Shown here one piece after another: positions 3,864-25,498 of a stretch of 64,000 nt of DNA. A model generated the notes under the pieces. It did not search any database. It was not told the origin of the DNA and was given only the letters and a program-made list of their open reading frames with translations. A program made the translations under genes and the position numbers. The stretch is from a phage, in NCBI GenBank assembly GCA_024673055.1, contig GCA_024673055.1_4537.1; one strand, given 5' to 3'. Each line of letters begins with the position of its first letter. The stretch's first letter is position 1.

Positions 3864-4658
3864 TTGAGCAAGTTGAACACACTTGATCAATATTACACTA
3901 ACCCCGCTTATGCGGGGTTCTTATGTGATAAGATCAAAGAAATTTTTGGAGAGGAAGCTAACTACGTAGAACCATCTGCGGGAGAAGGAGCTTTCTCTTC
4001 TTGTTTTAAAAACATAACTTCTTTTGATATTGACCCTAAGTTTGAAGATTGTATTGAGGCAGATTTTTTAGCTCAATCTGTTGAGTCTGTTGGTAGTGTA
4101 ACTGCTTTTGTCGGTAATCCCCCGTTTGGAAAAAATGCTAGTCTTGCCATTAAGTTCTTTAACCATTGTGCTGAAATGTTGGATAACGAAGGTGGTATTT
4201 GTTTTATCTTGCCTCGCACATTTCAAAAAATCTTTTTTGCACACAAACTAAATCCCCACATGCATCTTCTTTACGAAGAAGAATGTCCAAAAGGATCTTT
4301 TATTCTTCATGGAGAACCTTGGGATGTTCCTTGCGTATTCCAGATATGGATTAAACGCAATGAGAAGCGTTCTCCCGTTGTTTTAGGAGAGAATCGACTG
4401 TTCGTATTAGGTAACAGTAAAGACTACGATATAGCCGTTAGGAGAGCGGGAGCAAGTGCAGGTAAAGTGTTATCAGAAGAAGATTCTTTATCTGAAGCAT
4501 CCACCTATTTTTTAAAAGCCTTGACTTCTGATCTTAAAACGCGTATCATTGAGGCTTACCCGTTACTTAAAGCTGAAGCTAGTAAAACTGCGGGAGTAAG
4601 AAGTTTAAGTTTAAAAGAACTTCAGTGGGTTCTGGAGAACATTAGAAAGGAGGAATAG
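3864..4658 (+). CDS. DNA N6-adenine (or N4-cytosine) methyltransferase
   Basis: SAM-binding motif I (VEPSAGEGAF) followed closely by catalytic motif IV (GNPPFGKN); motif order I then IV suggests gamma-class. TTG start after AGGAGG. Confidence 0.8.
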   Translation: MSKLNTLDQYYTNPAYAGFLCDKIKEIFGEEANYVEPSAGEGAFSSCFKNITSFDIDPKFEDCIEADFLAQSVESVGSVTAFVGNPPFGKNASLAIKFFNHCAEMLDNEGGICFILPRTFQKIFFAHKLNPHMHLLYEEECPKGSFILHGEPWDVPCVFQIWIKRNEKRSPVVLGENRLFVLGNSKDYDIAVRRAGASAGKVLSEEDSLSEASTYFLKALTSDLKTRIIEAYPLLKAEASKTAGVRSLSLKELQWVLENIRKEE

Positions 4659-7600
4659 TGAGTAAGTTTACATGGGATATTGAAGCAAACGGATTGTTGA
4701 ATAATGACACTATTGATTATTTAGCTAGTCCTTATCGTCTCAAAGACACATTTCAAATGCACTGTATTGTCTTAGAGAACCATGAAACAGGAGAAATAGT
4801 AGCTTTCCACGATGGCCCTAAATACATCTTTGATGGGCGTCCTTATGAAGAGTCAGATGGTAAATACACATATGTTCTTAAAGAGTATGTGGCGCAAGAT
4901 TACACACATTTTCAACTAAAAGATTTCCCAGACTTTATTAATCATGAAGGTTATTTTAAAGATAAGCCTGAATATCTGGTTGAAATGGCTGTGGCTCACA
5001 ACGGTATCAACTACGACTGGTTGGCTACAAAACTGTTTTATGGCTTAGATTACAGTGTTAAATATAACACGTGGGGCAAAAATAAGGTAAAACTTATTGA
5101 CTCCTTGATTTTGAGTAAAGTGTTAAACCCAGATCGAAAGATTGAGGGCAAATCAGGACATAGTTTGGCAGCACTTTCTCGAAAGGCAGGTGGTGATGTA
5201 AAAATAGATTTCCGTAAAGAGATTCCAGAAGAAGATCGATTTAAGACTTTTGCTGCGGATATGCTTTATTACTGTATTTATGACAACAAAGCCAATACGA
5301 GCGTATATAATTACCTTATGGAAGAATGGGGCGATTATGATAAATGGGAAGGTCCATTTGAACTTGAACAACGTGTAGCAGACATTATTACACGCCAGGA
5401 ACACCGTGGGTTTGCTTTTAACATGAAGCAAGCAGAAGAGAACCTTGCTTTTTTGGATGCAGAAATGGAGCGTCTTCGTTTACTCGTTGAGCCTATTTTG
5501 CCACCTAAACCAGCAACAAAAGGTTATCTTAAGGCTTTTATTCCACCTAAGTTGCAAATTAAAAAGAACTTAGAGCCAACTAACCATATGATCAATTTTG
5601 CTAAGAAACATGATGGTCATTTGGAAGAGAGGGATGGCGATTGGTGGTTAGTTATGTTGGGGAAAGAGTGGAAACTGCCAGTTGCAGCAGATGAGCCTCT
5701 ATGTGATCCTAACATTCCTGCAACATTGAACGATACAACCCATATTAAAAACTGGCTCGTAGGATTAGGTTGGGTACCGTCTGAATATAAAGATAAAGAC
5801 TTGACGCTTAAATCTGGCACCAAAATTAAAAAGAGCGAGGAAGAACTTCAGAAAGGTATTAGAGCTTACGTTGAGCAAACTCTATCTTCTAATTTTTGTC
5901 AGGATCGTTGTGATCATCTGGAGTGCACACCGGAAACTTTGGAAAGGAAGATTCAAGAGCGTATAGCAAAAGGTAAAGGTCGCGGTCTTAAAGTATTGAC
6001 TAACCCATGTTTTACCAAAGGTCAGGAAAAAGAAATTTGTCCTAACCTGCAAGCTTTGGGTGAGAAATTTCCTTATGCTACACAGATTGTAGAATACTTA
6101 ACGTATAAGCATCGTAGGAACTCTATTTTAGGTGGCGGTGCTGATTGGGAAGAAGATGAAGAAGATCAAGAATACGATAAAGGTTTCTTAGCCGCAGTAA
6201 GGGCGGATGGGCGTATTCCTACACCAGCCGCTACATGTGATGCTGCAACCTCTCGTATGAAACATAGATCTGTAGCTAATATTCCTCGTGTCACATCTTT
6301 GTTTGGATGGGAGATGCGTAACTTGTTTGGTGTAGAGGTTCCTAAATACTTCCAGATTGGCTACGACTTCGACTCTTTGGAAGCAAAAATTGAATCGCAT
6401 TACTGTGTGCCGATGGATGCTCAAGCTTTGACTCGTAAAGGTTGGGTAGGATATCACGACCTGAAGGAAGGGGATGAGATTTTAGGGTACAATGCTGAAA
6501 CAGGTCTGAAAGAATGGACTAAAGTAAAAGGTAAGGTCTTCTATAAAAATAGTAAGACGTTTGAGATTAAAGGGAAATCACACACTTACCGTGCAACAGC
6601 AGATCACCGTTGGTATGTTAATACCCGTAGTAAAGGGAATACTTATGTGCCTAAAGTCAGAACAACTGCCGAGCTTTGCACAGGAGATAACATTATTTGT
6701 AATGCTCCATTTAACATGGAACAAGATCAGGTAAATAGTTTAACTTCTGTTCAACAGGGTAAATGGGATGTTCCGTGGGTAGAACGTGTAGTTAATATGT
6801 CTCATGCCGAGCGTGTAGCTTTCTTGGAAGGTTTCTTGATTGCAGATGGTTACTGGCACGAACATAAACAAAAACCTGTTTGGCGTTGGGCGCAGAACCC
6901 AGGTGAACTTTTTGAAGCAGCTTTAACTGCCTCGTACCTGGTGCATGGAGGCAATATCTCTGTAGCTTTCAATACAAAAGAGCAGAAAGTAAAAGTGGCA
7001 ACATTGACTAACCGCTCTCACATTCCTGTTCAAAGTTTGACTATTGAAGAGTGGGGTGTAGAAGATGTTTGGTGTCCACAAACAGAACTTGGTACGTGGG
7101 TCATGCGTCAGAAAGACTGCATTACCATCACAGGAAACTGTTGGCGGTACGAGCCGGAGCCACACGAATATTGTAACGCTCTGTTGTTAGAGAAACCTAA
7201 TGATGTTCACACAATGATGGCAAAACGTATCACTGAAACTATTGGACGTAAATTTGAACGTAGTCCTGCTAAATCTGTTAAGTATGGTATTACCTATGGT
7301 GCACAAGCCGACAAGGTTGCTAAAACAATTGGTAGCGACAAGTTTACAGGTCAATTGGTGTTCGATGCTTTCTGGGAAGCTGCATTCCCATTGGCGCGTC
7401 TTAAAGAACGTTTAAACGATTTCTGGGTTAAGACTGGTAAACAATATGTTTTGGGTATTGACGGTCGTAAGGTTCCTACTCGTTCTGCTCACGCGATTCT
7501 TAACTCTCTGTTCCAAAGCGGTGGGGTTATCTGTGCTAAACGTGCAATGGTTATTTATGATGACATGATCGAAGAAGAAGGGCTAAGTGTTGACTTCTTT

Positions 7601-7990
7601 AAAGATGACTGGAAGAATAAAGACTTCGTGCAACAAATGATTGCATATCACGATGAAGCCCAGCTTGAAGTTTCTCGTAACCTTGTAGAATTCAAATGGT
7701 TTTCACCGGAATCATTAGGTTGGAAGAAAGTAGACGATCCTGAAGAACAAAAGAAAATTGATAAAGAATGCCTTGCTAAAGTTGAAGAATGGAAGCATAA
7801 TAAGGAAAAAGAGACAGGGCAAATTTGGGCTAACATTCATGAATCTCCCAAAGGTGGATGGTTTACAGCTTATAGTCGGGCAGGTGAACTTGCTGCTTTA
7901 GCTGTTACTAAGGCTGGAGAATTTTACAATCTTAATGTTCAGCTTACTGCTGGATATGACGTGGGGAATTCCTGGGCCAGTTGTCACTGA
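4658..7990 (+). CDS. DNA polymerase, family A with 3'-5' exonuclease domain, interrupted by an intein
   Basis: Exo I (DIEANGL), Exo II (HNGINYDW) and Exo III (YYCIYD) motifs. Pol motif A (DFDSLEAKIESHY) is separated from motif B (KSVKYGITYGA) by a 245 aa insert with intein and LAGLIDADG signatures. Confidence 0.9.
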   Translation: MSKFTWDIEANGLLNNDTIDYLASPYRLKDTFQMHCIVLENHETGEIVAFHDGPKYIFDGRPYEESDGKYTYVLKEYVAQDYTHFQLKDFPDFINHEGYFKDKPEYLVEMAVAHNGINYDWLATKLFYGLDYSVKYNTWGKNKVKLIDSLILSKVLNPDRKIEGKSGHSLAALSRKAGGDVKIDFRKEIPEEDRFKTFAADMLYYCIYDNKANTSVYNYLMEEWGDYDKWEGPFELEQRVADIITRQEHRGFAFNMKQAEENLAFLDAEMERLRLLVEPILPPKPATKGYLKAFIPPKLQIKKNLEPTNHMINFAKKHDGHLEERDGDWWLVMLGKEWKLPVAADEPLCDPNIPATLNDTTHIKNWLVGLGWVPSEYKDKDLTLKSGTKIKKSEEELQKGIRAYVEQTLSSNFCQDRCDHLECTPETLERKIQERIAKGKGRGLKVLTNPCFTKGQEKEICPNLQALGEKFPYATQIVEYLTYKHRRNSILGGGADWEEDEEDQEYDKGFLAAVRADGRIPTPAATCDAATSRMKHRSVANIPRVTSLFGWEMRNLFGVEVPKYFQIGYDFDSLEAKIESHYCVPMDAQALTRKGWVGYHDLKEGDEILGYNAETGLKEWTKVKGKVFYKNSKTFEIKGKSHTYRATADHRWYVNTRSKGNTYVPKVRTTAELCTGDNIICNAPFNMEQDQVNSLTSVQQGKWDVPWVERVVNMSHAERVAFLEGFLIADGYWHEHKQKPVWRWAQNPGELFEAALTASYLVHGGNISVAFNTKEQKVKVATLTNRSHIPVQSLTIEEWGVEDVWCPQTELGTWVMRQKDCITITGNCWRYEPEPHEYCNALLLEKPNDVHTMMAKRITETIGRKFERSPAKSVKYGITYGAQADKVAKTIGSDKFTGQLVFDAFWEAAFPLARLKERLNDFWVKTGKQYVLGIDGRKVPTRSAHAILNSLFQSGGVICAKRAMVIYDDMIEEEGLSVDFFKDDWKNKDFVQQMIAYHDEAQLEVSRNLVEFKWFSPESLGWKKVDDPEEQKKIDKECLAKVEEWKHNKEKETGQIWANIHESPKGGWFTAYSRAGELAALAVTKAGEFYNLNVQLTAGYDVGNSWASCH
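6404..7138 (+). mobile_element. Intein with LAGLIDADG homing-endonuclease-like domain, inserted after Pol motif A
   Basis: Insert begins with Cys (CVPMDAQALTRKGW...GDEILGYN, block A-like), has a TxxH block B (TADHRWYV) and a LAGLIDADG-like motif (FLEGFLIADGYW), and ends ...ITGN with Cys at +1. The flanks rejoin into a contiguous Pol A motif region. Confidence 0.7.
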
Positions 7991-10600: not shown

Positions 10601-10640
10601 GGTTTGTTTCAAGTGTGTGAGGTTGAACGCTGAATAAAAG

Positions 10641-10670
10641 AAAGGAGCCATTTGGCTCCTTTTCTTATTT
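10641..10670. terminator. Bidirectional rho-independent terminator at the convergence of plus and minus gene blocks
   Basis: Perfect 9-bp inverted repeat AAAGGAGCC / GGCTCCTTT with a 4-nt loop, flanked by A-run and T-run; lies between the stops of convergent genes. Confidence 0.6.
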
Positions 10671-13337
10671 ATAATTGGAAGGAATGTTGTTATAATCAGA
10701 AAGTTTTGTGCAATACCTGAATAGGTAACTATTAGCTACTCCGCCTAATGTATTTGTTAATGTTGTTCCTGTTCCTGTAAGATTTGTGCATCCACTAAAG
10801 AAAGAAGATAATGCTCCACGTTTACCACAAACAGTTAACCCTGGGTTGTCATTAAAGATTTTATTAAAATCTGTAAGTGCTAAACAACCTTGGAATGTGG
10901 CTGTTAAAGAGGTCACTTTCGTTGGAATATTATCAAACATTCCTGCTGGAACTTCTGCAAGAGAGGTGCAATCTTTAAAGGTGTAAGAATATCTTGTAAC
11001 TTTTGATAGATTCTTAAATAAATCTGAAGGAATAGATGTTAAAGATGTACAACCTTCAAACGTGCTTGACATTGTTGTCATTGAAGGAAATAAAGCATCA
11101 CTGAATAATCCTTCAGGGATAGCTGTCAAACTTGTGCAGCCAGAGAAGATACCGCTTATAGATGTTCCGGTGTAAGATGTGTTACTAAAACAATCAGAAG
11201 TTATTCGTCTTAAGTTAGCACAACCTTTTAAGAATTGTGAGGCTGGGCTTGTAGAATAACCAATTCTGTTGCCGCCCCATAATTCTAAAAGATCTGGATT
11301 TGCTTCCATAGACACATCAACACTATTCACTACTGAAGCACTTGCAAATTCAATAGCCAGTCTATATTCTCCTGCTGGATAACTATCCACTGTAGAGAAA
11401 GCTTTATTTCTAAATATTACTTTATTTGAAGGTATTACAACGTCATCCACCTTAACTACAAAGTTAGCTGGTGTGACAGTACCCGATAAAATTGGGAACG
11501 TAATTGCCCCATCTGCCGAGTGGTTGAAATATCCGTTTAGAACCGTTAAACTACTACTCGGAGATGGAGCTAACTCCTTTCCCGCAACAGCGTTCACCGT
11601 TAAATAAGAACTATCAGAAGCGGTAACAACACCTTGATATGTAGCTGTGCAACCAATCCTACAACCACCATCACCAACACCAGTTATTACACCAGTTGTA
11701 GGATCTACTGTAGCAACACTAGGATCTGTAGTTGTATACTCAACAACCATACCAGGTAAGCTTGCTGCTCCTGTTGGTGTTATTTCTGCTACCATTGTTT
11801 GTGTTGTTCCTACATCCATCGCAGATAAGCTAGGGGTGTAAACACTCAATGTTGAAGCATACCCTCCAGAGGTATCTGATAAAGTTGTTCCTTCAGCGTT
11901 TAAGGCTGTCATACCTGCATCAAAACCACCTTCTGCATGGAAAGTCATTAAACCAGTAGATGATATTGTCATGTTTGCAGGGGCAGAAGAAGTGTATTTA
12001 ATATTGAAAAGTTTACCTCCTTCTGGGCTAACAGAATGTGTCAACTGTTTAGTTCCACCTACAATACAAATTCCTAAAGAATCTGTAGTTAAGCTAGTTG
12101 CCAGCACATCTCCCGTAATCACAGAGCTTGCTATCGGTGTGAATTTATTATAATTTAGACCACTGTTGAACAGATACGAGGCTTTCCCATCTTTCCAAAT
12201 ACCGGAATAATACATATCCCCGTTATAAACGAAAAAGGTTCCTTGATAACCTAATTGGTTAGTAATATCCATATTCAGCGTATGAACGCTTGTGAGCTTG
12301 TTTATATCCCAGGAACCCACTCCTTCAGGTTTAACTGGTTTTCCCACTTGGAGTGGATCTCCGCTCGCAGAATCATACCCCAAACCTAAGTTTGCAGTGT
12401 AGTTCTTACCAATAGCCCACAAGGAATTATTGATCCCAACGAAAAAAGAGTGGCGGCTTGGTGGAAATTTCCATGTTGAGAAACCTGCTGCAAAGGTGTC
12501 CAGTTTAGTGTAGGTTGTTTCTGTATTAGACCTAACATATAAGTAGTTTACTGTACCCGTGCCGCCGGAGGTATCTCCTACAACTATTGTCTGGGAAACT
12601 GTATTGATGTAATCTTTGACATACACTGTTTCAGTAGTGGATATCGTGGCATTGACAAAAGCGGTTGTTGTGTTATTATTACCTGCTAAACCTTTACTAG
12701 CTCCACAAACACGCAAGGTTCCCACATTGTTGACATAAGAGCATTGGTTGTAACCTGCATCAAAAGCAACTGCTGAACTTGTTATCTGACGAGGAGTAGA
12801 AACTTCGTTAGTAGTGCTTGCACCTAAACTACCTACTGTGTTTTGACCCGATCCATAAAGAACACCACTATTCATTAACCAGAGAGTATTGTTATACCCT
12901 CCTTTAACCTCTTTAAGATTGGCTAAAGAAATAGTCCCTGTTATTACAGATGGAAAGCTGGTCCAAGTAGTTACACATGCATCCGTACCACCTGCTGCTA
13001 TAGATCCTACCAACCCTGCTGTCAATCCTGAATATTGCCATCCCCCACTATTAGTTTTAATAACAAAACAACGATCTGCGGTAAACACATCCGCTACTAC
13101 AGTAGAAGCTAAGTGGAAATTATTGAATCGTGCACTACGAGTTCCATCTGCAATCTCACCAAAGAGGTTTGCGCCTTGAGTAAACAATCTACCATCATTA
13201 AGCAAAATTGCTAAACTACTGTTAGAATTACCAGCGTTATCTGGGTAATCTAAAGTAATTACTTTTTTAACAATACCTGCTGGCAGAGGAACGACACCAG
13301 TACTGGTCATAATAGTAAATATTGGAATTGGAAACAT
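10665..13337 (-). CDS. Receptor-binding tail protein with Ig-like (Big_2-like) and BspA-type leucine-rich-repeat C-terminal domains
   Basis: C-terminal tandem repeats F-x-GC-TSLT-x-IP-x-x-LF (five or more copies), a Big_2-like segment (VAEITPTGAASLPGMVVEYTTTDPSVATVD) and N-terminal RCC1-like G-x-N-x-x-G-x-LG motifs. Confidence 0.6.
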   Translation of the reverse strand: MFPIPIFTIMTSTGVVPLPAGIVKKVITLDYPDNAGNSNSSLAILLNDGRLFTQGANLFGEIADGTRSARFNNFHLASTVVADVFTADRCFVIKTNSGGWQYSGLTAGLVGSIAAGGTDACVTTWTSFPSVITGTISLANLKEVKGGYNNTLWLMNSGVLYGSGQNTVGSLGASTTNEVSTPRQITSSAVAFDAGYNQCSYVNNVGTLRVCGASKGLAGNNNTTTAFVNATISTTETVYVKDYINTVSQTIVVGDTSGGTGTVNYLYVRSNTETTYTKLDTFAAGFSTWKFPPSRHSFFVGINNSLWAIGKNYTANLGLGYDSASGDPLQVGKPVKPEGVGSWDINKLTSVHTLNMDITNQLGYQGTFFVYNGDMYYSGIWKDGKASYLFNSGLNYNKFTPIASSVITGDVLATSLTTDSLGICIVGGTKQLTHSVSPEGGKLFNIKYTSSAPANMTISSTGLMTFHAEGGFDAGMTALNAEGTTLSDTSGGYASTLSVYTPSLSAMDVGTTQTMVAEITPTGAASLPGMVVEYTTTDPSVATVDPTTGVITGVGDGGCRIGCTATYQGVVTASDSSYLTVNAVAGKELAPSPSSSLTVLNGYFNHSADGAITFPILSGTVTPANFVVKVDDVVIPSNKVIFRNKAFSTVDSYPAGEYRLAIEFASASVVNSVDVSMEANPDLLELWGGNRIGYSTSPASQFLKGCANLRRITSDCFSNTSYTGTSISGIFSGCTSLTAIPEGLFSDALFPSMTTMSSTFEGCTSLTSIPSDLFKNLSKVTRYSYTFKDCTSLAEVPAGMFDNIPTKVTSLTATFQGCLALTDFNKIFNDNPGLTVCGKRGALSSFFSGCTNLTGTGTTLTNTLGGVANSYLFRYCTKLSDYNNIPSNYK

Positions 13338-13344
13338 TTAAACC

Positions 13345-13376
13345 CTCCATAAAAAGAAAGCCCCTTTCGGGGCTTC
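13345..13376 (-). terminator. Rho-independent terminator (minus strand)
   Basis: AAGCCCC-TTTC-GGGGCTT hairpin with a T-run on the minus strand, downstream of the collagen-like fibre gene. Confidence 0.45.
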
Positions 13377-22604: not shown

Positions 22605-22846
22605 TAGTCATCCTCTTTGGTAGATTGTGATCTGCCCCAGCGTAAATCAATAAGATTTTTCATGAGGCGAGAAGGAGTTATCATGAAAACAAAAGCCCAA
22701 CCCATCCATTCAGGAATTTCTTTTTCTATTCCTAAAAAGATAAACATGCCTGTCATAACCGACATGCCTACAGCGTTCCAGACTTTCGTAGAACTGACTT
22801 TATTATCAGGATATGTACAGAACATACCTATTAAAAATTTTCTCAT
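22604..22846 (-). CDS. Small membrane protein (two predicted TM helices)
   Basis: Hydrophobic segments (VMTGMFIFLGI; WMGWAFVFMITP); start overlaps the adjacent gene. Confidence 0.4.
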   Translation of the reverse strand: MRKFLIGMFCTYPDNKVSSTKVWNAVGMSVMTGMFIFLGIEKEIPEWMGWAFVFMITPSRLMKNLIDLRWGRSQSTKEDD

Positions 22847-23151
22847 AGTGCGTTCCCATTACTTTTTAAATCACGAGATACAGCTAATTCCCCAAGGTCT
22901 ACAGAACCCGCTGAATGCACAAGTACAGCAGCACTAAGACTAATGGCAGTAATACCTGAGGCAATATCAGCAGGTAGGGAATACGCCCTTTGCGTCTCCT
23001 TATCATAGATAACCTTATACCCACCCAAATCCACACCAACTGAGAAGTAAACAACCTCAGATTGTTTGACTCCAAAGTAACGGGCTACTGCTTGTTTATT
23101 GGTTAAGATTCCGGTTGAACCTTTACCACCTTGGGAGAACATTTCGTTCAC
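22843..23151 (-). CDS. Hypothetical structural protein
   Basis: 102 aa ORF in the late operon. Confidence 0.4.
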   Translation of the reverse strand: MNEMFSQGGKGSTGILTNKQAVARYFGVKQSEVVYFSVGVDLGGYKVIYDKETQRAYSLPADIASGITAISLSAAVLVHSAGSVDLGELAVSRDLKSNGNAL

Positions 23152-23390
23152 AACAACCTCTTTGTTTTTCTAAGTAAGCCCCTCTTTGGAGGGGCTTGCA
23201 GTGGTAGTGACAACACTTTGAGTTAGTACGATAGTAACTAAAGACAAGATTAACCCTGCTACGATATGTTTTCATCATTTTATCACATGGCGATGAGATT
23301 CGCTTGCAGGACATAGTTTGTGTGAGTCGTAATGAAGTCCATGATGTCACATTTATAATTTCCCCGCCGAAGCGGGGTTATTGTTTGCTC

Positions 23391-25490
23391 TTACATACTG
23401 CTTATGAACTCAAGCTCGTAAAGCTGAACACGGTCTGTTGTGATATTTGCCTCAAAGTACGTTCCATCGTAGCTAGCAAGTTTCACATCATTTATATGCC
23501 CAGCATAGGCATCATCATACATAAAAATAACCTGACCTGTTCCTTTACCTACATACTTACACGTCCAGGTTCCTAGGGTTGTAGTGTTATTCGCCAGAGC
23601 GATTGTTGTCTCTACACCGCCTGTAGCGATAACTCCATATGCAGTGTTAGCTACATATTTAATACCAAAGTAGTTACCTGACGCGACAGAGCCACAAACC
23701 AGATAACCCGCTAAGGCTGTGACACCTGATGGTATGGCAAATGCCACTGCAAATCCAAGGTAGTTAGAGTTCTCAAACTGCCTTACCAAACGACGCTCTC
23801 GCTTATATCTCTGGATTGCAGTACCCCCAGCAGTACCAGCTCGAACAACTAAGCCACCTTCTACATAGTATTCGATACCAGATCCAGTACCGGTTACAGT
23901 ATTGGTGAACTTGTCATAATCCTGAAATTGCGTATGGTGGCGGGTGGTATCTAGTCTGAAAGAGGATGTCACACCGTTGATGGATTTGGTGGCTGTTTCT
24001 ATAATGACTCCAGCCTGTACACCATCAACCCGTGATTGTGCCACTTTACCTATTGCCATACCAAGGTCATTAGCGATTATTGTCCCGCCGATAGCCACTG
24101 CTACCCACGATTTGAGCACACCAGACATAGGAGCTAAAGCACTACCAATGCGAGTGGAGTTTGACATGATGGTCCCACCATGTTTAACCACCATACCCTT
24201 GTCATTTATATCTGTCCCAAAATCACAACCTTCAACACTGATAGTAGAGTTATATGCCTCTATACACTTGTCGACTCCAACACCATTGAAAGAGCATTTA
24301 TTAACGGCCCCGCTAGTGCAACCGTAAAATTCAACTGAACAATTCTCGTCGCTGTGGGTTCGATTGGTAAAGTTCAGGTTTTCTAAGTTAGGTGAGTAAG
24401 GCGTACCACCGCAAGAAAATACTTGTGCAGATCTGTAACTTACTTTTGTGCGGTCTTTGGATTTACTGGTAATAACCAAAATAGCCTGTTGACCGGACTC
24501 AGGCGGGAAGTTTGGAGTACACCCTCGTTTATTACGAATCACAAGGTCTTCATCGTAGGTTCCATCGGAAACCTGAATAGTAATAAATTGCCAGTAGTTG
24601 TCCGGCACCGCGTCAATGGCGGCCTGCATAGTAGGGTAGTCCTCTGGCACGTTTACCGTAACGTTGTAGGTGTAGACGCCAGGGACGGTAGAGGAATCAA
24701 CCCCGTATTGTTTGATATAGTTACGATACGGATCACCCCCGCCAATTGAGTTGATAAAACCCTCAATGCGAACTTTATTTGTTGTTGAGTATATATATCC
24801 GTTTTCACCTACATCTACGCGGAAAAGACGCGGGATTGTCAAATCCTCTTTAATCTCAACAGGGACATTAATGTAAACGCGACCACGACCACTTGCTATA
24901 GCTCGCTTTAATGCCTGAGTATAGTCTGGAGCGATGGGATCGCCGTCTCTAACGTAAGCACGAATGTCATCGTTAACTTCATCTCGCCCACCTATAAGGG
25001 TGAATCCTTTGCTGCTAGTTAATTCGTTTCGCAATGAAGCATTACCAACACTAACCCATGCACCTGTTCCAACACCACCTGTTGATGTAGGGGTTGAGTC
25101 AGCGGGAACAGCTTTAGGGAAAGCACCATCCCATGTATAGCACTGTCCACCAGCAATGTGCCAAACAGCATCGGTTGAACTATTGGCTGTCGCCCCTTCT
25201 TCAAAGCTACCATCAACAAGAGTTAACCCAGCCTCGGCAAGACTACGACACCACTGTTCACGATCATTAAGAAGATTGTTATTCAACTCTTCCTGAACAG
25301 TATTACCATTTGAGGATTGTATTAAATCTGCTCCATCTGTATCTTTCAACTGGGTGGCTAAAACCACCCCAGTGTCAGTAAGAAATTTGGAAACTGTGCT
25401 TTTAACAGTCTTATCAGGTTGGTCTAAAACCAGGTAATCAGAATCATTAACTTTTGATGTTTCGGGTAAATTAGTAATTGTAGTTGACAT
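23391..25490 (-). CDS. Tailspike / tail fibre protein
   Basis: Shares the motif Y-x-W-x-G-x-FPK-x-VPA-x-STP-x-x-TGG...AW-x-SVG with the 13379..15403 fibre; 699 aa with beta-rich repeats. Confidence 0.6.
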   Translation of the reverse strand: MSTTITNLPETSKVNDSDYLVLDQPDKTVKSTVSKFLTDTGVVLATQLKDTDGADLIQSSNGNTVQEELNNNLLNDREQWCRSLAEAGLTLVDGSFEEGATANSSTDAVWHIAGGQCYTWDGAFPKAVPADSTPTSTGGVGTGAWVSVGNASLRNELTSSKGFTLIGGRDEVNDDIRAYVRDGDPIAPDYTQALKRAIASGRGRVYINVPVEIKEDLTIPRLFRVDVGENGYIYSTTNKVRIEGFINSIGGGDPYRNYIKQYGVDSSTVPGVYTYNVTVNVPEDYPTMQAAIDAVPDNYWQFITIQVSDGTYDEDLVIRNKRGCTPNFPPESGQQAILVITSKSKDRTKVSYRSAQVFSCGGTPYSPNLENLNFTNRTHSDENCSVEFYGCTSGAVNKCSFNGVGVDKCIEAYNSTISVEGCDFGTDINDKGMVVKHGGTIMSNSTRIGSALAPMSGVLKSWVAVAIGGTIIANDLGMAIGKVAQSRVDGVQAGVIIETATKSINGVTSSFRLDTTRHHTQFQDYDKFTNTVTGTGSGIEYYVEGGLVVRAGTAGGTAIQRYKRERRLVRQFENSNYLGFAVAFAIPSGVTALAGYLVCGSVASGNYFGIKYVANTAYGVIATGGVETTIALANNTTTLGTWTCKYVGKGTGQVIFMYDDAYAGHINDVKLASYDGTYFEANITTDRVQLYELEFISSM

Positions 25491-25498
25491 TTTTACTC

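What the first reader, a model, noticed from the sequence alone, without database searches (positions are those of the whole stretch)
10700..11390. BspA-type leucine-rich repeats at the tip of a phage receptor-binding protein
The C-terminal ~230 residues of the 890 aa tail protein contain at least five tandem copies of F-x-GC-TSLT-x-IP-x-x-LF, a BspA-like LRR pattern typical of bacterial surface adhesins, preceded by a Big_2-like Ig domain and RCC1-like propeller motifs. LRR-tipped receptor-binding proteins are uncommon in enterobacterial-type phages.
Basis: partly seen in the sequence, partly recalled or inferred. Interest (0 to 1): 0.5.

Follow-up and report, generated by a model that had tools for sequence, protein, structure and literature searches.

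The report
LRR-tipped modular phage tail adhesin
The last gene of the tail-fibre cluster of a phAPEC8-like coliphage encodes a propeller–Ig–Ig protein whose exchangeable C-terminal cassette really is a seven-repeat leucine-rich-repeat domain of the BspA/DUF285 adhesin type, most likely one of the phage's several host-binding tips; this is an unusual but not unprecedented tip, and its ligand is unknown.

Summary

The window is a Phapecoctavirus, and this is the terminal gene of its tail-fibre/tailspike cluster ('TfpM1'). Residues 1-584 are conserved. The cassette after 'SSYLxVNAV' is swapped among near-identical phages: this LRR, an unrelated ~300-aa module, PKD plus canonical DUF285, another module, or none. 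The syntenic genes in rV5-, 4MG- and phi92-like phages share only an N-terminal MxPIP peptide and Ig domains.

The receptor-binding role is therefore well supported by inference but unproven, because virion presence, ligand and oligomeric state were not testable. The same LRR type is abundant in metagenomes (18,345 representatives), on Bacteroidota fimbrillin/BACON proteins and on P2 gpI tail proteins. It is a new member of a known kind, of moderate interest.

The parts
10665..13337 (-). Complete CDS, 890 aa plus stop. It is the terminal gene of the tail-fibre/tailspike cluster ('TfpM1', annotated 'tail protein').
   Evidence: ORF list. It is 96-99% identical in DNA over its full length to 34 Phapecoctavirus records. 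It corresponds to Mt1B1_P17 gp118, the last gene after the tail fibre and colanidase genes. phrog_11922 'tail protein' matches end to end. It is the 890/891-aa TfpM1 of PMC12695924.
13278..13337 (-). Conserved N-terminal peptide, aa 1-20 (MFPIPIFTIMTSTGVVPLPA). It is a candidate virion-docking element (inferred).
   Evidence: M[FYLI]P[IF]P... is kept in nearly all family members. It is also kept in the syntenic genes of 4MG, rV5-like MaxBurger and phi92-like Eryne/phiWec187, although their architectures differ. pLDDT is low for aa 1-6.
12138..13277 (-). Seven-bladed RCC1-like beta-propeller, about aa 21-400.
   Evidence: PF00415 scores 23.8 bits (cutoff 21.7). PF25390 scores E 7e-11 but is below its cutoff. 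The AF2 model has pLDDT mostly 85-94. Foldseek against the PDB finds UVR8, RCC1/2, HERC2 and RPGR at E 1e-12 to 1e-8 with TM(target) about 0.7.
11853..12116 (-). Big_2 Ig-like domain 1, about aa 408-495.
   Evidence: Pfam Big_2 gives two stretches. The AF2 model shows a beta-sandwich with strands 414-494.
11589..11852 (-). Big_2 Ig-like domain 2, about aa 496-583.
   Evidence: The best PF02368 stretch covers aa 505-565, E 1.9e-13. The AF2 model shows strands 497-581.
11586..11612 (-). Cassette-exchange junction, aa 576-584 (SSYLTVNAV). Everything C-terminal of it is replaced in relatives.
   Evidence: P0128-P0130 are 97-98% identical over the first 66% and then unrelated. The alternative C-termini start right after 'SSYLxVNA(V)'. 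pLDDT drops below 50 at aa 584-587.
11259..11576 (-). Small beta-sandwich domain, about aa 588-693. It is the first half of the swappable cassette.
   Evidence: The AF2 models show strands 597-685. No Pfam family matches. Weak Foldseek hits go to CBM-like and Ig-like sandwiches. Stand-alone homologues have a PKD-like domain in this position.
10668..11231 (-). LRR solenoid, aa 703-890. Seven repeats: R1 11148-11231, R2 11061-11147, R3 10980-11060, R4 10896-10979, R5 10800-10895, R6 10722-10799, and R7 with the C-terminal cap 10668-10721.
10640..10663 (.). Bidirectional intrinsic-terminator-like hairpin, 1 nt after the stop codon. It is shared with the convergent SSB gene.
   Evidence: The terminator scan finds it on both strands. 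Sequence read directly.
13344..13376 (-). Upstream control region: a terminator-like hairpin (13357-13376) after the preceding fibre gene, then the Shine-Dalgarno GGAGG (13344-13348) 6 nt before the ATG.
   Evidence: Terminator scan. Sequence read directly.

Best explanation
The gene encodes an adhesin-like accessory tail fibre of a Phapecoctavirus, a phAPEC8-like myovirus that carries several different fibres and spikes. The protein is built like beads on a string. It has a short conserved N-terminal MFPIP peptide, a seven-bladed RCC1-like propeller, two Big_2 Ig domains as a stalk, and then an exchangeable C-terminal cassette (aa 585-890). The cassette consists of a small beta-sandwich and a seven-repeat leucine-rich-repeat solenoid of the BspA/DUF285 (PARCEL) class, closed by a conserved C-terminal cap.

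Shown here: the domain folds, the repeat, the gene's position, and the cassette swapping at a fixed junction.

Inferred: the conserved N-terminal part docks the protein on the baseplate/fibre network, and the LRR is the distal ligand-binding tip. The tip would give the phage one of its alternative host-surface specificities, probably reversible primary adsorption. Host range at this locus would then be changed by replacing the whole cassette rather than by point variation. The chain is probably not a classical trimeric fibre, because it has no coiled-coil, beta-helix or collagen-like segments. The ligand is unknown.

For: 2. Tail context. This is the last gene of a cluster holding baseplate wedge, short fibre plus chaperone, colanidase spike and fibre genes. 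It has its own GGAGG ribosome-binding site. The position is syntenic in rV5-like phages (a 1875-aa 'lateral tail fiber protein with intimin domain'), in Seunavirus 4MG and in phi92-like phages.

3. Signature of a receptor-binding protein. Residues 1-584 are 97-98% identical in phages whose C-termini are unrelated. At least four alternative cassettes, plus a cassette-less form, start at the same junction. In phi92-like phages the cassette is homologous to the N4 gp65 receptor-binding sheath protein, PDB 9lc0_I, E 2e-25. In phiWec187 two cassettes are stacked.

4. The same LRR type sits at the end of other adhesive or tail proteins. These include P2 gpI baseplate proteins of Klebsiella prophages and P0292, Mfa-like fimbrillins and BACON proteins, and a roughly 320-aa stand-alone protein in the structural module of a Bacteroidota-type temperate phage.

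5. Phages that differ in this cassette differ in host factors needed. phiWec188/190 carry the LRR and need yhaH. phiWec179/181/186 carry module b and need flhD (PMC12548472).
Against: No direct evidence shows that the protein is in the virion. The only proteomic data for a syntenic relative, rV5 gp27, are three poor, non-tryptic peptides covering 3.1%. RCC1-like proteins found in W70 virions are not shown to be orthologues.

Seunavirus orthologues stop after the second Ig domain (565-573 aa). The propeller may therefore itself be a functional binding domain, and the C-terminal cassette is dispensable in some lineages.

The host-factor correlation is confounded, because TfpL also differs between the Wec groups. 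YhaH is an inner-membrane protein, and phiWec187 carries module b without needing flhD.

The LRR is no more variable than the rest of the protein among orthologues (0.79 against 0.72-0.80). The query itself fails the Pfam LRR_5 and DUF285 thresholds.
Confidence: 0.68

Rival explanations
1. The propeller is the real binding or functional domain, and the C-terminal cassette, LRR included, is an accessory that modulates or extends it. It might act as a second, optional lectin or as a spacer, rather than as the receptor-binding tip.
For: Seunavirus-type orthologues have only the propeller and two Ig domains, with no cassette. The propeller is conserved across Vequintavirinae and Stephanstirmvirinae. 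From general knowledge, beta-propellers serve as receptor-binding platforms in some phage receptor-binding proteins, such as staphylococcal phi11 Gp45.
Against: phi92-like phages have lost the propeller but kept the N-terminal peptide, the Ig pair and a cassette related to a known receptor-binding protein, N4 gp65. Cassette turnover between phages that are 97-98% identical in aa 1-584 is the pattern expected of the specificity-determining part.
Confidence: 0.12
2. The protein is a virion-borne adhesin for something other than the infection receptor, such as mucus glycoproteins, biofilm matrix or non-host surfaces. This would be Hoc-like 'adherence to mucus' behaviour: it would improve encounter rates but not determine which strains are infected.
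For: The Ig-stalk plus LRR architecture resembles bacterial surface adhesins. The closest LRR relatives sit on Bacteroidota fimbrillin-like and BACON proteins of gut bacteria. The LRR shows no elevated variability among orthologues. From general knowledge, BspA-family LRR proteins bind host matrix proteins.
Against: The gene lies in the tail-fibre cluster, not the head module. Its alternative cassettes include an N4 gp65-like receptor-binding module. The same LRR type is fused to the P2 gpI baseplate protein, where a role in host contact is the natural reading.
Confidence: 0.1
3. The protein is not a virion component. It would be a late-expressed non-structural protein, for example released at lysis, that merely sits next to the fibre genes.
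For: A terminator-like hairpin separates it from the upstream fibre gene. The N-terminus has no recognisable trimeric fibre or spike adaptor domain, unlike its neighbours. Proteomic support in rV5 is very weak.
Against: Terminal-gene synteny is conserved across three phage subgroups. The gene shares orientation with the late structural genes and has a strong ribosome-binding site. Its cassette content is typical of receptor-binding proteins. PHROG families for it are all in the 'tail' category.
Confidence: 0.07
4. The repeat is not an LRR but another beta-solenoid, or a compositional artefact.
For: Pfam LRR_5 gives no hit and DUF285 is below threshold. Foldseek against the PDB gave only E>=0.14 with TM about 0.2.
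Confidence: 0.03

Closest known systems
BspA/TpLRR-type leucine-rich repeats (Pfam LRR_5, PF13306). Solved examples: Bacteroides ovatus BACOVA_04585 (PDB 4fs7), 4gt6, 4h09 and T. pallidum TpLRR (6mlx).
   Different: The query itself does not hit PF13306. Its repeat period is 27-29 residues (range 26-32), against about 23-24 in the classical type. It has a distinctive C-terminal cap, C..LsDY..IP..[WY]K.
[quoted passage not shown]
   Same: This is the nearest curated family by E-value. The repeat length is similar. hhalign of this family against canonical DUF285 repeats gives 97.4% probability, E 1e-11, in repeat register. A canonical DUF285 cassette is an alternative allele at this same locus in related phages (P0141-P0145, E 7e-39).
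   Different: The scores are below the curated cutoffs (16 against 25 bits; 17.4 against 30 bits). The hallmark 'FNQ(D/P)IS.W(D/N)vS.V' half of the DUF285 unit is replaced here by 'LT.IP..LF'.
P2 gpI-type baseplate proteins with C-terminal LRR arrays. Examples: Klebsiella Peduoviridae prophage ST16-OXA48phi5.4 gp35, 1008 aa, and metagenomic P0292 (Tail_P2_I + Big_2 + LRR_5).
   Same: A phage tail or baseplate protein of an enterobacterial phage carries the same FxGCxSLxxIP repeats and the same type of cap (…CAGLDDYDDLPGNW), 33% identical over 91% of the query. In P0292 a Big_2 domain also precedes the LRR.
   Different: The N-terminal anchor is the well-defined gpI wedge domain. The array is much longer, about 25 repeats. 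The phage is temperate and P2-like rather than a large virulent myovirus.
Syntenic terminal fibre genes of related myoviruses: rV5 gp27 / MaxBurger bas54_0041 ('lateral tail fiber protein with intimin domain'), 4MG_038, and phi92-like Eryne CDS0033 / phiWec187 BDU13031.
   Same: All occupy the same position at the end of the fibre cluster. All share the N-terminal M-x-P-I-P peptide and Big_2 domains, and all but the phi92-like genes share the propeller.
   Different: The C-termini differ. rV5-like has a long Ig array with another tip. 4MG has nothing. phi92-like has an N4 gp65-like module (PDB 9lc0_I, E 2e-25), with module b stacked behind it in phiWec187. None of these carries the LRR.
Multivalent 'Swiss-army-knife' adsorption apparatus of phi92 and relatives (Schwarzer et al. 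2012, as cited in PMC10844046 and PMC8594841).
   Same: Both are large myoviruses expressing several different fibres and spikes from one locus, which is thought to explain their broad host range. This gene adds one more blade.
   Different: The described blades are mostly trimeric glycan-degrading spikes or fibres. This one is non-enzymatic by prediction and looks like a monomeric adhesin. PMC12695924 reports it absent from phi92-like phages, although a partial homologue sits at the same site.

Membership tests
Leucine-rich repeat superfamily (Pfam clan LRR) | Tandem 20-30-residue repeats with a conserved hydrophobic / Asn-or-Cys ladder pattern | tested here: met
   Seven repeats with the [FL]xxCxxL core and period 26-32. 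None of 20,000 shuffles reached seven.
Leucine-rich repeat superfamily (Pfam clan LRR) | Curved solenoid fold with one short beta-strand per repeat | tested here: met
Leucine-rich repeat superfamily (Pfam clan LRR) | Sequence-profile homology to established LRR proteins | tested here: met
   The profile of A3 against PDB sequences returned 67 hits, all listed ones LRR proteins, the best at 2e-22. hhalign against DUF285 repeats gave 97.4%.
BspA-type LRR, Pfam LRR_5 (PF13306) | Score above the PF13306 gathering threshold | tested here: not met
   No LRR_5 hit for the full protein or for the isolated C-terminus, even at E<=10. However, 15 of 31 homologues do hit it, and LRR_5-type structures 4fs7 and 4gt6 are found by the family profile.
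BspA-type LRR, Pfam LRR_5 (PF13306) | TpLRR-like unit of about 23 residues, 'LxxIxIPxxVxxIgxxAFxxCxx' (from general knowledge of the family) | tested here: inconclusive
   The 'F..C..L..IP' core is present in R2-R4, but the unit is 27-29 residues. Homologues mix periods of 23-24 and 26-27.
DUF285 / PARCEL repeat (PF03382; TIGR02167) | Score above curated cutoffs | tested here: not met
   PF03382 scores 16 bits (E 0.01) against a cutoff of 25. TIGR02167 scores 17.4 bits against 30. It is related at profile level.
Phage receptor-binding / tail fibre protein | Encoded within the tail/baseplate morphogenesis module | tested here: met
   It is the terminal gene of the fibre/spike cluster and is co-oriented with the baseplate genes. 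The position is syntenic in three related phage groups.
Phage receptor-binding / tail fibre protein | Conserved virion-proximal part with a variable, horizontally exchanged distal part among close relatives | tested here: met
   Residues 1-584 are 97-98% identical in phages with unrelated C-termini. Five states are seen at one junction.
Phage receptor-binding / tail fibre protein | Physically present in the virion | not testable with these tools
   Only indirect evidence exists. rV5 gp27 was found with 3 poor peptides, and RCC1-like proteins were found in W70 virions. No Phapecoctavirus virion proteome was found.
Phage receptor-binding / tail fibre protein | Binds a host surface receptor and determines adsorption or host range | not testable with these tools
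   Only a confounded correlation exists: LRR-allele phages need yhaH and module-b phages need flhD.
Phage receptor-binding / tail fibre protein | Homotrimeric fibre or spike architecture (typical, not universal) | not tested
   Only monomer prediction was available. The domain set (propeller, Ig, Ig, sandwich, LRR) has no trimerisation-type segment, so a monomeric chain is inferred.
RCC1-like beta-propeller | Pfam RCC1 repeat above threshold and a seven-bladed propeller fold | tested here: met
   PF00415 scores 23.8 bits against 21.7. Foldseek finds UVR8, RCC1 and HERC2 at E about 1e-12, TM(target) 0.65-0.70. The whole-domain model PF25390 is below its cutoff (42.5 bits against 150).
Big_2 bacterial Ig-like domain (PF02368) | Score above the gathering threshold | tested here: met
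   The score is 37.2-50.6 bits against a cutoff of 22.8, in two stretches.

The most novel reading that the evidence does not exclude
The protein is a new class of myovirus receptor-binding device: a monomeric, intimin/fimbria-like adhesin. It would be plugged into the baseplate by nothing more than a 15-20-residue N-terminal MxPIP peptide. Its LRR tip, imported from the gut Bacteroidota and phage adhesin pool, would recognise a protein rather than a glycan on E. coli, one whose surface display depends on YhaH. The locus would then be a plug-and-play socket that accepts unrelated, even stacked, binding cassettes.
Probability: 0.15. Interest if true: 0.65.

Novelty: new member of a known kind. 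Interest (0 to 1): 0.4.

Why it matters
Phapecoctaviruses have among the broadest host ranges of the E. coli phages being developed for therapy and biocontrol: AV125 and AV126 lysed 84 and 65 of 198 ESBL/AmpC strains. Yet which gene makes which fibre, and which receptors they use, is still described as unknown.

This work assigns a fold and a modular logic to one of those genes. It has a fixed scaffold and a precise junction at aa 584/585, and it takes at least four natural alternative tips, two of them LRRs. That gives a ready design for cassette-swap engineering and for receptor hunting, for example by comparing LRR-allele and module-b phages on yhaH and flhD mutants.

It also links a coliphage tip to an adhesin repeat that is very abundant on gut Bacteroidota surface proteins and their phages. 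No phage ligand has been defined for that repeat.

Tried and rejected
1. Direct Pfam and NCBIfam scans gave no LRR_5 hit and only sub-threshold DUF285 and PARCEL hits. Direct family membership could therefore not be claimed, and the case rests on structure, profile and homologue evidence.

3. phmmer of the full protein against PDB sequences gave weak LRR hits, biased by repeats (best 6e-6, a designed LRR). This was suggestive only.

4. Literature searches found no paper describing an LRR-tipped phage receptor-binding protein, only annotation-table entries in a jumbo Vibrio phage. The searches were Phapecoctavirus + tail fiber; DUF285 + phage; LRR + RBP + tail fiber; and BspA + phage + tail. 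The phi92 paper (PMC3457257) is not held.

5. Evidence for virion association was sought without success. No Phapecoctavirus proteome was found. rV5 gp27 peptides are few and of poor quality.

6. I considered a tidy rule of 'cassette equals host factor': LRR with YhaH, module b with flagella, and gp65-like with NfrB. I rejected it as unproven. TfpL co-varies between the Wec groups, YhaH is an inner-membrane protein, and phiWec187 carries module b without flhD dependence.

7. I suspected an esterase in the phi92-like cassette from a 'WGQGEND' motif. Pfam gave no support. The module is instead homologous to the N4 gp65-type protein.

8. I looked for hypervariability of the LRR ligand face among orthologues and found none.

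9. My initial guess that the window was T5-like was wrong. It is a Phapecoctavirus.
Full report
**What the window is.** The 2,673-nt ORF at 10665..13337 (minus strand, 890 aa) is 96-99% identical in DNA over its full length to 34 records of phAPEC8-like myoviruses. These belong to genus Phapecoctavirus, subfamily Stephanstirmvirinae, with genomes of about 150 kb, and include ECO340P2, Mt1B1_P17, ESCO5 and tuntematon. In the annotated relative Mt1B1_P17 it is gp118, 'tail protein'. It is the last gene of a co-oriented block holding baseplate wedge, short fibre plus chaperone, colanic-acid-degrading spike and tail-fibre genes. It lies convergent to the SSB and DNA-polymerase genes. PHROG scans of the window's neighbours agree with this. 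A 2025 paper calls this gene TfpM1 (890/891 aa) without describing its domains.

**Check of the observation.** The motif [FL]xxCxxL occurs at aa 703, 731, 760, 787, 815, 847 and 873, with spacings of 26-32. Shuffling the last 190 residues gives 0.15 motifs on average, and none of 20,000 shuffles reaches seven. The others are degenerate, and the last is a cap (FRYCTKLSDYNNIPSNYK). The units are only 31-64% identical in DNA, so they are ancient. The repeats lie at nt 10668-11231. Big_2 (two stretches, E 1.9e-13) and RCC1 (above threshold) are confirmed.

**Is it an LRR?**
- Direct scans are weak. There is no Pfam LRR_5 hit. DUF285 scores 16 bits against a cutoff of 25, and TIGR02167 ('PARCEL repeat-containing surface protein') scores 17.4 against 30.
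- Indirect evidence is strong. The word-indexed search found 243 homologues of the C-terminal 213 aa, many precomputed as LRR_5 and/or DUF285. Of 31 aligned members, 15 hit LRR_5 and 11 hit DUF285.
- The family consensus is F-x-G-C-T-S-L-T-S-I-P-x-x-L-F-x-x-x-x-x-V-T-x-F-x-x-x, closed by C-x-G-L-S-D-Y-A-x-I-P-x-x-W-K. The window protein shares this cap.
- A profile of the family hits only LRR proteins among PDB sequences: 5a5c at 2e-22, the Bacteroides BspA-like 4fs7 at 1e-17, 4gt6 at 6e-13 and TpLRR 6mlx at 3e-5.
- AlphaFold2 models were made of the whole protein (mean pLDDT 85.7, LRR region 90-97) and of aa 583-890 (pLDDT 81.6, pTM 0.83). Both show a solenoid with one short strand per repeat.
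- hhalign of this family against the canonical DUF285 repeats found in related phages gives 97.4% probability in repeat register.

The domain is therefore an LRR of the BspA/DUF285 lineage with an unusually long unit of 27-29 residues. It is not a threshold-passing member of either Pfam family.

**Rest of the protein.** The model shows five parts:
- an N-terminal peptide;
- a seven-bladed propeller, about aa 21-400, with Foldseek hits to UVR8, RCC1 and HERC2 at E about 1e-12 and TM(target) about 0.7;
- two Ig domains (aa 408-583);
- a flexible linker at aa 584-587;
- a small beta-sandwich (aa 588-693), followed by the LRR.

**Why it is probably a receptor-binding device.** A full-length search shows that residues 1-584 are conserved while the remainder is exchanged at one junction, right after 'SSYLxVNAV'. 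Five states exist:
- (a) this sandwich plus LRR (P0121-P0127, P0132, P0134, P0135);
- (b) an unrelated module of about 300 aa ending GLKYYD, present in phages 97-98% identical upstream (P0128-P0130) and in phiWec181;
- (c) PKD plus canonical DUF285, E 7e-39 (P0141-P0145);
- (d) another module (P0140);
- (e) nothing, giving 565-573 aa as in Seunavirus (P0147-P0155; 4MG_038).

About 36 of roughly 67 Phapecoctavirus or 'Wecvirus' records carry the LRR allele. The syntenic terminal gene has these forms in other groups:
- In rV5-like phages it is a 1875-aa 'lateral tail fiber protein with intimin domain' that shares the first 195 aa.
- In phi92-like phages it lacks the propeller but keeps the N-terminal peptide and the Ig pair. 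These are followed by a module homologous to the N4 gp65-type receptor-binding sheath protein, PDB 9lc0_I, E 2e-25.
- In phiWec187, module b is stacked behind that.

The only elements common to all are the peptide M-[FYL]-P-I-P-x-[FL] and the Ig domains. I therefore infer that the N-terminus is the virion-proximal end and the cassette the distal, specificity-giving end. Among diverged LRR-allele orthologues, conservation is flat across domains (0.72-0.80), so diversity arises by cassette replacement and not by hypervariation.

**Where the LRR module comes from.** An exhaustive phmmer search finds 18,345 cluster representatives at E<=1e-3 and 950 at E<=1e-30, many of them giant multi-repeat proteins. 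The near relatives carry BACON or viral BACON domains, Mfa-like fimbrillin, or Kelch plus fn3. One carries Tail_P2_I + Big_2 + LRR_5. Stand-alone proteins of about 320 aa, built as sandwich, LRR and cap, sit in the structural module of a Bacteroidota-type temperate phage next to a BACON protein, and in another phage-like contig.

Among 50,697 cultured-phage records only 60 match. Of these, 36 are this phage group and 16 are Klebsiella P2-like prophages whose gpI baseplate protein ends in about 25 such repeats. The rest are a few jumbo phages, a cyanophage, Bacillus phage G and a Butyrivibrio phage. The tip is thus rare in cultured enterobacterial phages but common in nature.

**Experimental hints from the literature.** In PMC12548472, phiWec188 and phiWec190, which carry the LRR allele, lose infectivity on a yhaH mutant. 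phiWec179, 181 and 186, which carry module b, lose it on an flhD mutant. All five need waaT. This fits a cassette-dependent secondary receptor, but it is confounded in three ways. TfpL also differs between the groups. YhaH is an inner-membrane protein. phiWec187 carries module b without needing flhD.

Virion presence is unproven. rV5 gp27 was listed with only three poor peptides. RCC1-like proteins were detected in W70 virions, but orthology is not shown.

**Expression signals.** A terminator-like hairpin (13357-13376) follows the upstream fibre gene. A GGAGG ribosome-binding site (13344-13348) precedes the ATG. A bidirectional terminator (10640-10663) follows the stop codon.

**Verdict.** The caveats are that 'BspA-type' holds only in the broad sense and that the receptor-binding role is inferred. 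This is a new member of a known kind, a modular phage adhesin or receptor-binding protein using a known adhesin repeat. It is of moderate interest mainly because it offers a clean, testable cassette system in therapeutically relevant broad-host-range phages.

Noticed in passing
window 4658-7990 (+), insertion at about nt 6407-7138: The DNA polymerase ORF is 1110 aa, against 865 aa in Mt1B1_P17. The two flanks (aa 1-583 and 828-1110) are 100% identical, and the extra 244 aa begin with C (CVPMDAQ…) and end …ITGN followed by C. This is the signature of an intein, absent from the close relative.
   Followed up: partly
window about 22830-25498; ORF 23391-25490 (-), 699 aa: This is an extra tailspike-like gene whose N-terminus matches tailspike adaptor PHROGs. 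It has no counterpart in Mt1B1_P17, while its neighbours are 96-99% identical. It is a second variable receptor-binding locus in the cluster, and probably the 'specific putative RBP' difference noted between AV125 and AV126.
   Followed up: partly
window 10601-10664, compared with L001 17701-18108: Mt1B1_P17 has a 408-nt 'endonuclease' gene between this tail gene and the SSB gene. The window has only a 64-nt spacer with a bidirectional terminator. This is likely presence/absence of a homing endonuclease.
   Followed up: no
L010 6956-8842 (Eryne) and L011 2456-5275 (phiWec187): phi92-like phages are reported to lack TfpM1, but they have a partial homologue at the same site: the MYPIP peptide, two Big_2 domains (58-59% identical) and a module homologous to the N4 gp65-type 'non-contractile tail sheath' protein (PDB 9lc0_I, E 2e-25). 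phiWec187 adds module b behind it, giving 939 aa. The same paper reports phiWec187 failing on a K-12 nfrB deletion.
   Followed up: partly
L002 3547-6573 (Klebsiella phage ST16-OXA48phi5.4 gp35): This P2 gpI-type baseplate protein is extended to 1008 aa by about 25 FxGCxSLxxxP LRR units and a DDYDDLPGNW cap. The same gene recurs in 16 Klebsiella prophage records.
   Followed up: partly
window 13357-13376 (-): A GC-rich hairpin with a T-run lies between the stop of the 674-aa fibre gene and the ribosome-binding site of this gene. It may attenuate read-through and set a lower copy number for this protein.
   Followed up: no
hit tables: Nearly identical Phapecoctavirus genomes are deposited as 'Campylobacter phage B15/A150/A141', 'Pseudomonas phage PsgM04F', an Acinetobacter phage and 'Klebsiella phage ZCKP1'. 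Either the host range is extraordinarily broad or, more likely, some hosts are mis-assigned or the preparations were contaminated.
   Followed up: no
L005 7388-8975 (metagenomic temperate phage, SU10-like capsid): A 324-aa stand-alone protein built as sandwich, LRR and cap (P0013) lies directly after a BACON-like protein in the structural module of a Bacteroidota-type prophage with integrase and S24 repressor. It is a likely natural reservoir of the cassette.
   Followed up: partly
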